32,000 nucleotides of DNA, taken from Desulfobulbus propionicus DSM 2032 (GTDB lineage Bacteria; Desulfobacterota; Desulfobulbia; Desulfobulbales; Desulfobulbaceae). Location: positions 750,001 through 782,000 of the forward strand of contig NC_014972.1 of the NCBI RefSeq assembly GCF_000186885.1. Reading direction: 5' to 3'. Position 1 is the first letter of the stretch. Each line of letters begins with the position of its first letter. Positions 439-2,256 of the stretch are shown one piece after another. A program made the translations under genes and the position numbers. The notes beneath the pieces are model-generated. The model had not been told where the DNA came from. It searched no databases and saw nothing but the letters and a program-made list of their open reading frames with translations.

Positions 439-2256
439 ATGGCGAAAACCCTGCGATCAAAGAAAAAAAGACGATGGCTCATCCCCTTTTTTGTTATTTT
501 GCTGACAGCGGCTGGAATTGTTCTGTATAGATACCCCCCCTCCCTCCAGGATATCGGCAGGATTATACAGTCTGCTGTCGGCAAAATTTCATCTCTCTCA
601 GCGGGCCAAACGCCCGCTGAACCTGTTTTAAGAGGAACGGTTTACGATCGAAAATTCAGGGAACTGGCGGTGTCGTACCGTCTGTTTTCGTTGATTGTCA
701 ATCCGGTTGAGGTGGTTGATCGGCGTAAGGCCGCTGAAGCGCTGGCCCCCTTGGTCGGCGACAAGGTGGAGAATATCGAGCTTCGGCTGAAAACCGCGCA
801 GTATTCCATGGTGCTGTCCGATGACCTCGATGCCCGCCAGGCCGAGCAGATCGCCGCCCTCCAATTGCGCGGCGTGACCTGCAAGGCCACGGAGGCCCGT
901 TTTTATCCCGGGCATACCGCTGCCTCGCATGTGCTTGGATTCATGGGTGACGGTGTCGGTCTTGCGGGCGTGGAAGGGAAGTACGATACGGTGCTGCAGG
1001 CTGGTGGATTTCGGAAAAGCAACATACCGGACATCGATTTCCAGGGCGAGGAGAGCCTGGGGCAGAAGGAAACGGACATTGTGCTCACTCTGGACATCGA
1101 CCTCCAGAGGCAACTGGAAAACCGTTTCCGGGAACATCTTGCCGCGCAAGGGTCGGAAAAGGGCATGGGATTGCTGATCGACCCGAGCAGCGGACGTATC
1201 CTCGCGCTCGTGAATCAGCCCTCGTTCAACCCCAATTATTTCTGGAAGGCCAACGAGAGCAACCGGATCAACCGGATCTACAACCATGTGCTCGATAAGG
1301 AGCTGATCAGGCCTCTTCTCGCGCGGGCAGCGGCCATCGAGCGTGAAGGGCTGGATGGGCCGGGGATACTGCCGGCCACCGTGGCTGCGCCGGATTATGG
1401 GTTCACCCCGGAACAGCTCGATGCCTTTGAGCAACAAATCCAGCTGTATGGTTCGGTGTTCGGCAACTGGGAGTCCGGACCGGCAGCGCAGGAGCGGACC
1501 GGCGCGCAACCGGTGGTTACCGGTGTTCAAGTGGGAGTGACCCTGGCGAGCCTGGTCAACGGTGGTTGGCGAATTACGCCCTATGTGGTCGATTCCATCT
1601 ACGATCATGCGACGATGAAACGCTACTCCCGCAGTAACGAGGCCACGGAGAAGATCCATGTGCTCGACCCGGCGCTGGGGGTCAAGATTCGCCGGGAACT
1701 GTTTGCCAACTGGCTGTTGGAGCAGGAAAATCTGGTCGTGTTTACTGCGGATCATGTGCAAATCCAGCCGGACAAGGACCAATACAGCCGCTATTCCATG
1801 CAGGATCTGTTCGTCGGACTGGCGCCGGCCAAGCAGCCAAAGTTTCTTTTGTTGATGGCCGTCGAGCAGGATCACCTGCTGCCTGTGGCGCAGCGGAAAG
1901 ACAATGAAAATGGGGTGTTGGAACTCATGGGTAAGGAGCTGCTCGCGGCTTTGGCCAAGGTGCCGCCGCCAGATGCCTTGCCGGAAAAACCTCCGGAAAA
2001 AAGCGAGGAAAATCTTCGCCAGTTTTTCATCAGCAAACGTCTTAATTTCAGAAATGCGCCAGGAAAAGCCAACGAACCGATTCCTCGCATGCCGCAATTG
2101 CGGGGCATGAGCCTGCGCAAAGGATTGCAGCAGATCGACAAATACAAGATGACGGTGAGGGTCAACGGCAGTGGACGGATCATCGCCCAGTATCCTCTTC
2201 CAGGACAACCTCTGACTGGGGTGGACGAATGTATTCTGACCCTGGACTCCAAATAG
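439..2256 (+). CDS. ftsI: FtsI/PBP3-like class B penicillin-binding protein homologue with degenerate transpeptidase motifs and a C-terminal PASTA domain
   Basis: 605 aa from ATG 439 ([13 protein letters not shown], then a TM segment). The ORF-track start at 397 overlaps ftsL and is less likely. PBP dimerisation-domain motifs are present ([35 protein letters not shown]). Transpeptidase-domain landmarks are present ([42 protein letters not shown]). The last ~55 aa read as PASTA ([44 protein letters not shown]). The expected SxxK, SxN and KTG positions are not conserved (see findings). Confidence 0.85.
   Translation: [605 protein letters not shown]

What the first reader, a model, noticed from the sequence alone, without database searches (positions are those of the whole stretch)
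439..2256. The dcw-encoded FtsI homologue appears catalytically dead: SxxK, SxN and KTG are all lost, and a PASTA domain is appended
By-eye alignment to E. coli FtsI places ...[25 protein letters not shown]... opposite ...[25 protein letters not shown]... The catalytic Ser-x-x-Lys position therefore reads E-L-I-R (codons at 1300-1311). The KTG(T) box position reads F-T-A (VVFTADHV, codons 1741-1749). No SxN is visible between them. The only SxxK strings in the protein lie in the cytoplasmic tail (SKKK) and in the PASTA domain (SLRK). The fold landmarks are otherwise conserved: dimerisation domain, SFNPN, [9 protein letters not shown] and [12 protein letters not shown]. This looks like a retained scaffold rather than a decaying pseudogene. 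The frame is intact and is translationally linked to ftsL and murEF. A non-catalytic divisome PBP in a Gram-negative-type dcw cluster would mean septal cross-linking is done by another enzyme. The PASTA domain could make this protein a muropeptide or lipid II sensor.
Basis: partly seen in the sequence, partly recalled or inferred. Interest (0 to 1): 0.75.

Follow-up and report, generated by a model that had tools for sequence, protein, structure and literature searches.

The report
Catalytically dead FtsI without FtsW
The cell-division gene cluster of Desulfobulbus propionicus encodes an FtsI-like protein that keeps the penicillin-binding-protein fold but has lost all three catalytic motifs, and its usual partner gene ftsW is missing; the same holds across the order Desulfobulbales, cable bacteria included, so these bacteria must build their division wall with other enzymes.

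Summary
The window is Desulfobulbus propionicus DSM 2032. ORF 439-2256 is a 605-aa class B PBP homologue with a TM anchor, pedestal, transpeptidase (TP) fold and one PASTA domain.

Profile-profile alignment to canonical bPBPs (probability 100%, E 3e-68) places E288-L-I-R291 at SxxK and A317-P-D319 at SxN. The VVFTADH strand (F435-T-A437) lies at KTG.

An AlphaFold model (pLDDT 83) matches solved bPBPs, so the fold is kept. dN/dS of the dead TP domain is 0.13, which indicates purifying selection rather than decay.

- The dead form is lineage-wide. 188 relatives lack the motif set. They come from Desulfobulbus, Desulfogranum, Electrothrix, Electronema, Desulfurivibrio and Ca. Desulfatifera.
- ftsW is absent between murD and murG in the window and in every Desulfobulbales locus that spans that junction. 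An Anaeromyxobacter-like relative with an intact PASTA-bearing FtsI has ftsW there. PASTA is therefore probably ancestral, not newly appended.

A 2021 paper reported ftsW missing from four Desulfobulbaceae genomes but listed FtsI as present. I found no report of the dead site.

Most likely the protein is a non-catalytic divisome scaffold or regulator that couples FtsQ/FtsL to another synthase (RodA-PBP2 or a class A PBP). That mechanism is inferred, not shown.

The parts
69..431 (+). ftsL-like gene (120 aa, one TM helix plus coiled coil), immediately upstream
   Evidence: Its position between rsmH and the FtsI homologue is seen in L081. The Pfam FtsL match is weak, E 0.029. tblastn finds it upstream of the gene in most of the 80 related loci.
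439..2256 (+). Pseudo-FtsI: a 605-aa class B PBP homologue without catalytic motifs (CDS including stop)
   Evidence: It is 100% identical to P0001, named 'Penicillin-binding protein dimerization domain protein [Desulfobulbus propionicus DSM 2032]'.
478..531 (+). N-terminal transmembrane anchor (residues 14-31), preceded by a basic cytoplasmic tail
   Evidence: The sequence is hydrophobic ([17 protein letters not shown]). The AlphaFold model has a helix at 15-31.
613..1164 (+). Pedestal (non-penicillin-binding) module, residues 59-242. The bPBP signature residues R65, R154 and E179 are kept.
   Evidence: Pfam PBP_dimer E 1e-12. R65, R154 and E179 are invariant in A1. hhalign pairs them with E. 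coli R71, R167 and E193. pLDDT is about 90-95. dN/dS is 0.17.
1165..1893 (+). Degenerate transpeptidase-fold domain, residues 243-485
   Evidence: Pfam PF00905 matches only residues 243-275, profile positions 2-30 of 299. hhalign aligns the whole domain to canonical bPBPs. Foldseek top hits are SpoVD, P. aeruginosa PBP3 and PBP2x, E about 1e-28. dN/dS is 0.13.
1300..1311 (+). E288-L-I-R291 at the position of the catalytic S-x-x-K
   Evidence: Position 288 varies in the family (E, G, S, A, D, L, Q), so no conserved substitute nucleophile exists.
1387..1395 (+). A317-P-D319 at the position of S-x-N
   Evidence: hhalign and MAFFT.
1735..1755 (+). V433-VFTADH439, the beta3 strand that carries K-T-G in active PBPs (F435-T-A437 in the MAFFT register)
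   Evidence: The model has a strand at 432-443. There is no K[ST]G in the whole protein.
1894..2082 (+). Helical linker, residues 486-548, with a conserved N525/F529 helix
   Evidence: Model helices at 492-506 and 523-539. N525 and F529 are nearly invariant in A1.
2083..2253 (+). Single C-terminal PASTA domain, residues 549-605; the most conserved part of the protein
   Evidence: Pfam E 3e-4 here; 28 of 30 family members match, best E 6e-12. Invariant M551, P552, S558, L559, R560, G577, G579, Q584 and P586. pLDDT is about 95, with an alpha plus three-beta fold.
2270..5305 (+). murE-murF fused gene (1011 aa), immediately downstream
   Evidence: Two complete sets of Mur ligase domains.
5305..7764 (+). 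mraY (5305-6384) and murD (6388-7764)
   Evidence: ORF list. Domains in the identical locus L081: Glycos_transf_4, and MurD-like_N plus the Mur ligase domains.
7765..7993 (.). murD-murG junction where ftsW normally sits. No SEDS gene is present, only a 78-aa Cys-rich ORF (7766-8002).
   Evidence: No SEDS hit with a verified E. coli RodA query in the window or in 80 related loci. The same gap occurs in L083, L084 and L086. ftsW (PF01098) is present at this spot in the canonical relative L085.
7994..14909 (+). murG, murC, murB, ftsQ, ftsA and ftsZ (rest of the dcw cluster)
   Evidence: Pfam. The murG start at ATG 7994 is read from the sequence.

Best explanation
ORF 439-2256 is the FtsI-position class B PBP of the Desulfobulbus propionicus dcw cluster. 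It has turned into a pseudoenzyme.

What it keeps and what it has lost:
- It keeps the membrane anchor, the pedestal module with its signature residues, the overall transpeptidase fold and a C-terminal PASTA domain.
- The nucleophile motif SxxK, the SxN motif and the KTG motif are all replaced by non-catalytic and variable residues. It cannot form the acyl-enzyme that DD-transpeptidation and beta-lactam binding require.
- Its usual glycosyltransferase partner FtsW has been lost from the dcw cluster. According to a published gene survey it is lost from the genome as well.
- Both traits are shared by the sampled families of the order Desulfobulbales, including cable bacteria. This points to one ancestral event.

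Most likely mechanism (inferred): the protein survives because of its non-catalytic functions. It would be recruited to the division site through FtsQ/FtsL and would use its TM helix and pedestal to position or activate a different peptidoglycan synthase. That synthase would be either the cell's only SEDS protein, RodA, with PBP2 or a class A PBP doing the cross-linking, or a class A PBP directly, as in Clostridioides difficile. The PASTA domain and the dead TP cleft may bind peptidoglycan or lipid II.

Shown: loss of the motifs, retention of the fold, purifying selection, lineage-wide distribution, and absence of ftsW from the cluster.
Inferred: divisome localisation, the partner, and ligand binding.
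For: Identity and domain layout:
- The protein is 100% identical to a D. propionicus DSM 2032 protein.
- Domain order is TM, PBP_dimer, partial Transpeptidase, PASTA.
- NCBIfam scores are far below every bPBP cut-off. Examples: FtsI subfamily 63 bits against 737, and PBP2 109 bits against 455.

Motif loss:
- phmmer against PDB, MAFFT and hhalign (probability 100%, E 3e-68) all place non-catalytic residues at the three motifs.
- The string search agrees.
- The former motif positions vary within the family, while W269, N374, G376, S558 and R560 are invariant.

Fold and selection:
- AlphaFold2 gives pLDDT 83.3 and pTM 0.76.
- Foldseek against PDB is topped by SpoVD, PBP3 and PBP2x at E about 1e-28.
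- dN/dS over 74 pairs is 0.13 for the pseudo-TP domain, 0.17 for the pedestal and 0.17 for PASTA.

Lineage-wide distribution:
- 131 of 133 full-length sequences among the best 150 cluster representatives from 1.84 billion proteins lack SxxK at the aligned position.
- Of 188 non-canonical relatives, none has all three motifs and 185 have no S..K within 10 residues of the site.
- hhalign of the other subfamilies gives the same result.
- Taxa include Desulfobulbus, Desulfogranum, Electrothrix and Electronema, Desulfurivibrio alkaliphilus and D. dismutans, and Ca. Desulfatifera.

Absence of ftsW:
- No SEDS gene lies between murD and murG in the window.
- No SEDS hit occurs in the window or 80 related loci, nor in L083, L084 or L086.
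- An Anaeromyxobacter-like locus with an intact PASTA-bearing FtsI has ftsW in that slot.

Literature:
- Geerlings et al. 2021 (PMC7873302) found ftsW, zipA and ftsN absent from D. propionicus, D. japonicus and two Electrothrix genomes. They found mre genes plus pbpA (PBP2) and rodA present as one cluster.
- B. subtilis PBP2B transpeptidase activity is dispensable (PMC5656894).
- C. difficile divides without FtsW-FtsI, using the class A PBP1 (PMC12871735).
Against: - No biochemistry exists. Loss of acylation is inferred from sequence and a predicted structure.
- I could not scan the full D. propionicus genome. Genome-wide absence of ftsW and presence of an intact PBP2-RodA pair rest on one published BLAST-based survey (PMC7873302). 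That survey also missed the ftsL-like gene seen here, so its negatives are not infallible.
- The KTG register differs by 2-3 residues between alignment methods.
- Part of subfamily B keeps the serine of SxN, and 3 of 188 relatives have an out-of-register S..K near the site.
- Nothing tested here shows which synthase the protein works with, or that it localises to the septum.
Confidence: 0.72

Rival explanations
1. The protein has left the divisome and acts mainly as a peptidoglycan or lipid II binding sensor or regulator, through PASTA and the dead TP cleft. It would control another process rather than scaffold septal synthesis. This is analogous to the PASTA modules of PknB-type kinases.
For: PASTA is the most conserved segment, with 9 invariant residues in 57. 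The pseudo-active-site region carries new conserved motifs: FNPNYFW with invariant W269, and LLPxTVAAP.
Against: The gene keeps the exact FtsI slot between ftsL and murE in the dcw operon in all loci that cover it. The pedestal signature residues that mediate SEDS and FtsL contacts in canonical FtsI are invariant. Canonical, active FtsI relatives carry the same PASTA domain, so PASTA by itself does not imply a sensor role. There is no cytoplasmic output domain, only a 13-residue tail.
Confidence: 0.15
2. The protein is still an enzyme that uses non-canonical residues, for example E288 or another residue as nucleophile.
For: The TP-fold domain is under the strongest purifying selection of all domains. 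E288/D288 and R291 are fairly conserved within the Desulfobulbus clade: 31 of 35 and 34 of 35 orthologues.
Against: Across the wider family position 288 is E, G, S, A, D, L or Q, and 291 is R, E, S, K, H, Q or D. In subfamily B the pair is typically G...R. All three motifs are gone at once. To my knowledge no PBP-fold acyltransferase works without the Ser-Lys dyad. About 23 columns between helix alpha2 and the SxN position are deleted.
Confidence: 0.04
3. It is a decaying relic, or an artefact of sequencing or assembly, in one genome.
For: Pfam recognises only 30 of 299 positions of the TP profile.
Against: The reading frame is intact in more than 100 independent assemblies spanning 26-100% identity. 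dN/dS is 0.13-0.19. The structure prediction is confident.
Confidence: 0.01

Closest known systems
FtsI / PBP3 of E. coli and P. aeruginosa (divisome class B PBP, partner of FtsW)
   Same: Same gene position (mraZ-rsmH-ftsL-ftsI-murE...). Same bitopic topology, the same pedestal with conserved R/R/E signature residues, and the same overall TP fold. Foldseek E is about 1e-28 to PBP3 structures.
   Different: No SxxK, SxN or KTG. About 23 aligned columns are deleted between helix alpha2 and the SxN position. An extra C-terminal PASTA domain is present. No ftsW lies in the cluster. NCBIfam FtsI score is 63 bits against a cut-off of 737.
PASTA-bearing division bPBPs of Gram-positives (S. pneumoniae PBP2x, B. 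subtilis PBP2B, S. aureus PBP1, C. difficile SpoVD)
   Same: Pedestal-TP-PASTA architecture. SpoVD and PBP2x are among the best sequence and structure matches. For B. subtilis PBP2B the protein is essential but its transpeptidase activity is not (PMC5656894). This is the experimental precedent for a purely structural role.
   Different: Those proteins are all catalytically competent in nature. Dead versions exist only as laboratory mutants. They also work with FtsW. Here the dead state is the natural, conserved state and FtsW is missing. There is only one PASTA repeat.
Clostridioides difficile divisome (no FtsW-FtsI; the class A PBP1 makes the septum)
   Same: A walled bacterium that divides without a functional FtsW-FtsI synthase (PMC12871735, PMC12539705).
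   Different: C. difficile is described as missing FtsW-FtsI (PMC12871735) and is Gram-positive. Desulfobulbales are diderm and keep a dead FtsI shell in the dcw cluster together with ftsL, ftsQ, ftsA and ftsZ.
Canonical PASTA-bearing FtsI of Myxococcota (P0336, an Anaeromyxobacter-like locus L085)
   Same: Same architecture including PASTA, and the same dcw position.
   Different: It has intact [8 protein letters not shown], SSN and KTGT motifs, and ftsW lies between murD and murG.

Membership tests
[quoted passage not shown] | N-terminal membrane anchor followed by a pedestal / non-penicillin-binding module (Pfam PF03717) with conserved Arg, Arg and Glu boxes | tested here: met
   PF03717 E 1e-12. 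R65, R154 and E179 are invariant and hhalign pairs them with E. coli R71, R167 and E193. The model has a TM helix at 15-31.
[quoted passage not shown] | Transpeptidase (penicilloyl-serine transferase) fold | tested here: met
   hhalign gives 528 aligned columns at probability 100%. The AlphaFold model matches PBP3, SpoVD and PBP2x structures. The Pfam PF00905 match is only partial, residues 243-275.
[quoted passage not shown] | Active-site motif 1: S-x-x-K (nucleophilic Ser and general-base Lys) | tested here: not met
   E288-L-I-R291 occupies the position.
[quoted passage not shown] | Active-site motif 2: S-x-N/D | tested here: not met
   A317-P-D319 occupies the position.
[quoted passage not shown] | Active-site motif 3: K-[TS]-G on strand beta3 | tested here: not met
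   VVFTADH is at the position, and there is no K[ST]G anywhere in the protein.
[quoted passage not shown] | Covalent binding of beta-lactams | not testable with these tools
   Needs Bocillin-FL labelling of the purified protein.
FtsI (divisome bPBP) | Encoded in the dcw cluster between ftsL and murE | tested here: met
FtsI (divisome bPBP) | Works with a cognate SEDS glycosyltransferase, FtsW, usually encoded between murD and murG | tested here: not met
   No SEDS gene lies in the window, in 80 related loci or in L083, L084 and L086. PMC7873302 reports ftsW absent from the genome. Genome-wide absence was not re-tested here.
FtsI (divisome bPBP) | Meets the curated NCBIfam FtsI, PBP2 or SpoVD model cut-offs | tested here: not met
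   Best scores are 115 bits against 688 (SpoVD), 109 against 455 (PBP2) and 63 against 737 (FtsI).
FtsI (divisome bPBP) | Localises to the septum and is required for division | not testable with these tools
   Needs cell biology in a Desulfobulbales strain.
PASTA domain (PF03793) | Roughly 60-70-residue alpha plus three-beta module matching the Pfam profile | tested here: met
   On this protein alone the score is 21.1 bits, below the gathering cut-off of 23.2. 28 of 30 family members match, best E 6e-12. The model shows helix 559-569 and strands 572-576, 580-585 and 597-603 at pLDDT about 95.

The most novel reading that the evidence does not exclude
In Desulfobulbales, cable bacteria included, a single SEDS polymerase (RodA) serves both elongation and division. 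It would be switched between the two jobs by exchanging its class B partner: the active PBP2 in the elongasome, and the catalytically dead FtsI shell in the divisome. The dead shell would couple RodA to FtsQ/FtsL control, while cross-links are made in trans by PBP2 or a class A PBP. This would be the first natural case of a pseudo-bPBP acting purely as an allosteric adaptor, and a second, Gram-negative, exception to the FtsW-FtsI rule.
Probability: 0.3. Interest if true: 0.85.

Novelty: new variant of a known kind. Interest (0 to 1): 0.72.

Why it matters
FtsW-FtsI is treated as the near-universal septal peptidoglycan synthase of walled bacteria. C. difficile was presented recently as the surprising exception (PMC12871735).

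This finding indicates that a whole order of diderm bacteria, including the electrically conductive cable bacteria, has no ftsW in its division cluster and keeps only a dead FtsI under purifying selection.

If confirmed, three things follow:
- It gives a natural experiment that separates the scaffolding or allosteric role of a class B PBP from its enzymatic role.
- It predicts insensitivity of division to FtsI-specific beta-lactams such as aztreonam and cephalexin.
- It raises the testable question of which enzyme builds the septum in these organisms.

It also warns that genome annotations calling these proteins 'cell division protein FtsI (penicillin-binding protein 3)' (JGI names) overstate what they can do.

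Tried and rejected
- The look-up of encoding contigs on P0001 returned only a 2.3-kb read assembly without DNA. P0310 (Desulfurivibrio alkaliphilus) was not on record.
- I could not enumerate all SEDS, bPBP, aPBP and LD-transpeptidase genes of D. propionicus. No tool gives access to a whole named genome, and the single genome-contig scan went on the family distribution.
- My third and last homologue search used the ftsW of locus L085, to see whether any Desulfobulbales FtsW would surface. L085 turned out to be Anaeromyxobacter-like, and the 120 listed hits were all close (>=68% identical) FtsW relatives, the named ones Anaeromyxobacter. It says nothing about Desulfobulbales.
- The listing of cluster members gave few organism names.
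- Literature searches found no paper on dead or non-catalytic FtsI, on FtsI or penicillin-binding proteins in Desulfobulbus or Electrothrix, or on dcw clusters in Desulfobacterota.
- Rejected ideas: pseudogene decay (dN/dS); assembly error (orthologues); PASTA as a lineage-specific addition linked to the loss of catalysis (canonical relatives have it).
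Full report
**Source and context**

The window is from Desulfobulbus propionicus DSM 2032. The translated ORF 439-2253 is 100% identical to P0001, named 'Penicillin-binding protein dimerization domain protein [Desulfobulbus propionicus DSM 2032]', on a 3.85-Mb contig.

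The + strand carries a dcw cluster:

| Gene | Coordinates |
|---|---|
| ftsL-like | 69-431 |
| FtsI homologue | 439-2256 |
| fused murE-murF | 2270-5305 |
| mraY | 5305-6384 |
| murD | 6388-7764 |
| murG | about 7994-9087 |
| murC | 9118-10503 |
| murB | 10451-11428 |
| ftsQ | 11447-12385 |
| ftsA | 12345-13613 |
| ftsZ | 13701-14909 |

In the identical locus L081, mraZ and rsmH lie just upstream. No other PBP or SEDS gene lies in the 32 kb.

**Checking the observation**

The coordinates are exact. E288-L-I-R291 is nt 1300-1311 and F435-T-A437 is nt 1741-1749.

- The only S..K strings are SKKK (residues 7-10) and SLRK (558-561).
- No K[ST]G exists anywhere in the protein.
- The only S.N is SFN 262-264, in the conserved SFNPN strand.

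Pfam finds three domains:

- PBP_dimer at residues 62-171, E 1e-12.
- Only the first 30 of 299 positions of the Transpeptidase profile, at residues 243-275.
- PASTA at residues 550-592, 21.1 bits, just under the gathering cut-off of 23.2.

All NCBIfam bPBP models score far below their cut-offs.

The motif positions were checked in three ways:

- phmmer against PDB aligns 'dk.elirplla' with N. gonorrhoeae PBP2 'epgsaikpfvi'.
- For the next two checks I wrote the E. coli FtsI sequence from memory. It matched PDB 7ONW residue for residue across the 7ONW FtsI portion, about residues 49-588.
- MAFFT with canonical anchors places [10 protein letters not shown] under [18 protein letters not shown] under LQKSSNVG, and LVVFTADHV under IAIKTGTAK.
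- hhalign compared a 30-sequence family profile (A1) with a 27-sequence canonical profile (A4). It gives probability 100%, E 3e-68 and 528 aligned columns. It maps S307 to E288, K310 to R291 and S359-S-N361 to A317-P-D319, and aligns the VAGKTGT strand to VVFTADH.

The KTG register differs by 2-3 residues between MAFFT and hhalign, but no register yields K-[ST]-G. hhalign also shows a deletion of about 23 columns between helix alpha2 and the SxN position.

**Fold**

An AlphaFold2 model built on a 72-sequence alignment has mean pLDDT 83.3 and pTM 0.76. Its secondary-structure elements are:

| Element | Residues |
|---|---|
| TM helix | 15-31 |
| Helix in the alpha2 position | 291-303 |
| Strand in the beta3 position | 432-443 |
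| C-terminal alpha plus three-beta unit | 559-603, pLDDT about 95 |

Foldseek against PDB is led by C. difficile SpoVD, P. aeruginosa PBP3 and pneumococcal PBP2x, at E about 1e-28 and about 20% identity. The bPBP scaffold is therefore retained. Residue-level structural superposition was not available.

**Not decay and not an artefact**

Orthologues with the same intact frame occur in more than 100 independent assemblies. Nei-Gojobori dN/dS was computed over 74 orthologue pairs with dS between 0.1 and 1.2:

| Region | dN/dS |
|---|---|
| Dead TP domain | 0.13 |
| Pedestal | 0.17 |
| PASTA | 0.17 |
| Linker | 0.25 |
| N-terminal tail and TM | 0.38 |

The dead domain is the most constrained part of the protein. 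Residues at the former catalytic positions vary across the family: position 288 is E, G, S, A, D, L or Q, and position 291 is R, E, S, K, H, Q or D. In contrast W269, N374, G376, S558 and R560 are invariant. This argues against a substitute nucleophile and for a different, structural or binding, function.

**Distribution**

An exhaustive phmmer search of 1.84 billion cluster representatives returned 185 proteins at E <= 1e-30.

- Among the 133 full-length members of the best 150, 131 lack SxxK at the aligned position. Only P0252 and P0268 are canonical.
- With the hits of a second search added, none of 188 non-canonical relatives has all three motifs, and 185 have no S..K within 10 residues of the site.

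The non-canonical relatives form three subfamilies:

| Subfamily | Taxa |
|---|---|
| A | Desulfobulbus (including D. elongatus, D. rhabdoformis, D. alkaliphilus), Desulfogranum, Ca. Electrothrix, Ca. Electronema |
| B | Desulfurivibrio alkaliphilus, D. dismutans, Desulfobulbales MAGs |
| C | Ca. Desulfatifera sulfidica |

hhalign of subfamilies B and C against canonical bPBPs gives S to G and K to R in the reference sequence, and no KTG. Part of subfamily B keeps the SxN serine.

All subfamilies end in a PASTA domain. So do the canonical relatives P0252, P0268, P0332, P0335 and P0336. PASTA is therefore most likely ancestral in this part of the bPBP tree, not an addition linked to the loss of catalysis.

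**The missing partner**

In the window murD ends at 7764 and murG starts at about 7994. The gap holds only a 78-aa Cys-rich ORF.

I wrote the E. coli RodA sequence from memory and confirmed it as identical to PDB 8TJ3 chain B. phmmer with it found no SEDS protein in any six-frame ORF of at least 80 aa, in the window or in 80 Desulfobulbaceae loci of up to 22 kb. Where the loci extend far enough, gene order is ftsL, pseudo-FtsI, murE(F), mraY, murD, (small ORF), murG, murC, murB, ftsQ; several cable-bacteria (Electrothrix/Electronema) loci diverge downstream of mraY.

The same murD-murG adjacency without ftsW is seen in three further loci:

- Desulfurivibrio dismutans, L083.
- A subfamily B metagenome locus, L084.
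- A subfamily C locus, L086.

In contrast, locus L085 encodes a motif-intact, PASTA-bearing FtsI (P0336) and has an FTSW_RODA_SPOVE gene exactly between murD and murG. That locus is Anaeromyxobacter-like. Loss of the catalytic motifs and loss of ftsW thus go together in every locus I could examine.

**Literature**

- Geerlings et al. 2021 (PMC7873302) compared D. propionicus, D. japonicus and two Electrothrix genomes. They reported that zipA, ftsW and ftsN are absent from all four, and that the mre genes, pbpA (PBP2) and rodA form one cluster. FtsI is listed as present and is assumed to make septal peptidoglycan. The dead active site is not mentioned.
- They also state that FtsL is not encoded in D. 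propionicus. Yet an ftsL-like gene sits at 69-431, so their negative calls should be re-checked.
- A 2025 survey of bPBPs and SEDS proteins across Bacteria (PMC12516126) does not mention Desulfo- taxa or natural loss of the catalytic motifs.
- B. subtilis PBP2B is essential while its transpeptidase activity is not (PMC5656894).
- C. difficile lacks FtsW-FtsI and uses the class A PBP1. [quoted passage not shown]
- I found no paper describing a naturally dead FtsI in Desulfobulbales.

**Mechanism**

Shown:

- The protein cannot carry out serine-based DD-transpeptidation as bPBPs do.
- It is conserved under purifying selection.
- It stays in the dcw operon next to ftsL.
- Its SEDS partner gene is gone from the cluster.

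Inferred: it survives for the non-catalytic functions known for division bPBPs. From established knowledge of FtsWI and FtsQLB complexes, these are recruitment through FtsQ/FtsL(/FtsB), and contact with and activation of a glycan polymerase through the TM helix and pedestal.

Two partners are plausible:

- RodA, the only SEDS reported in these genomes. This gives a 2 bPBP-like to 1 SEDS arrangement, of the kind the 2025 survey describes as common. Cross-linking would be done by PBP2 or a class A PBP.
- A class A PBP directly, as in C. difficile.

The invariant PASTA residues and the newly conserved motifs in the dead cleft (FNPNYFW, LLPxTVAAP) fit a peptidoglycan or lipid II binding role. That role is untested.

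**Verdict**

I rate it a new variant of a known kind: a natural pseudo-bPBP in the FtsI position, coupled to loss of FtsW, across an order.

Interest is high for cell-wall and division specialists. It offers a second and phylogenetically distant exception to the FtsW-FtsI paradigm, and a natural separation of the scaffold role from the catalytic role.

The main caveats are the lack of biochemistry and my inability to inventory the whole genome.

Noticed in passing
window 7766-8002 (+): A 78-aa Cys-rich ORF fills the murD-murG gap where ftsW normally lies. It starts MALIRMCCVCH and contains HGYCPDC. A GGAGG Shine-Dalgarno lies 7 nt upstream, and its stop overlaps the murG ATG at 7994. The motif CCxC...W...HGYCPxC is conserved at the same spot in 46 of 80 Desulfobulbaceae loci. 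It is absent from the subfamily B and C loci. It is a called gene in L081. The only Pfam hit is DUF7569, E 0.033. Function unknown; it looks like a small zinc-ribbon protein.
   Followed up: partly
window 2270-5305 (+): murE and murF are fused into one 1011-aa ORF with two full sets of Mur ligase domains. The fusion is present in nearly all Desulfobulbaceae loci and in L084 and L086. The genes are split in Desulfurivibrio dismutans (L083) and in the Anaeromyxobacter-like L085.
   Followed up: partly
window 69-431 (+): An ftsL-like gene (120 aa, TM plus coiled coil; Pfam FtsL E 0.029) lies in the canonical slot and is conserved upstream in most related loci. A published survey (PMC7873302) lists ftsL as not encoded in D. 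propionicus.
   Followed up: partly
window 11428-11447 and the whole cluster: No ddl gene lies between murB and ftsQ, and there is no ftsW. The cluster runs straight from murB to ftsQ.
   Followed up: no
window 24081-25406 (-): A 441-aa protein has an N-terminal DACNV 'probable sensor' domain (E 3e-30) and a weak DisA-type diadenylate cyclase match (E 8e-4). It is a possible c-di-AMP synthase.
   Followed up: no
window 15021-16823 (+): A 600-aa radical SAM protein (Radical_SAM_N2 plus Radical_SAM) lies directly downstream of ftsZ. It is followed by a histidine kinase at 16705-18387 and a 413-aa ORF at 18282-19523 with no significant Pfam match.
   Followed up: no
L085 (Anaeromyxobacter-like contig JBFONB010001156.1), 4975-7053 and 12608-13798: A canonical, motif-intact FtsI with a C-terminal PASTA domain sits in a diderm (Myxococcota) dcw cluster with ftsW. 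PASTA-bearing FtsI is therefore not confined to Gram-positives.
   Followed up: partly
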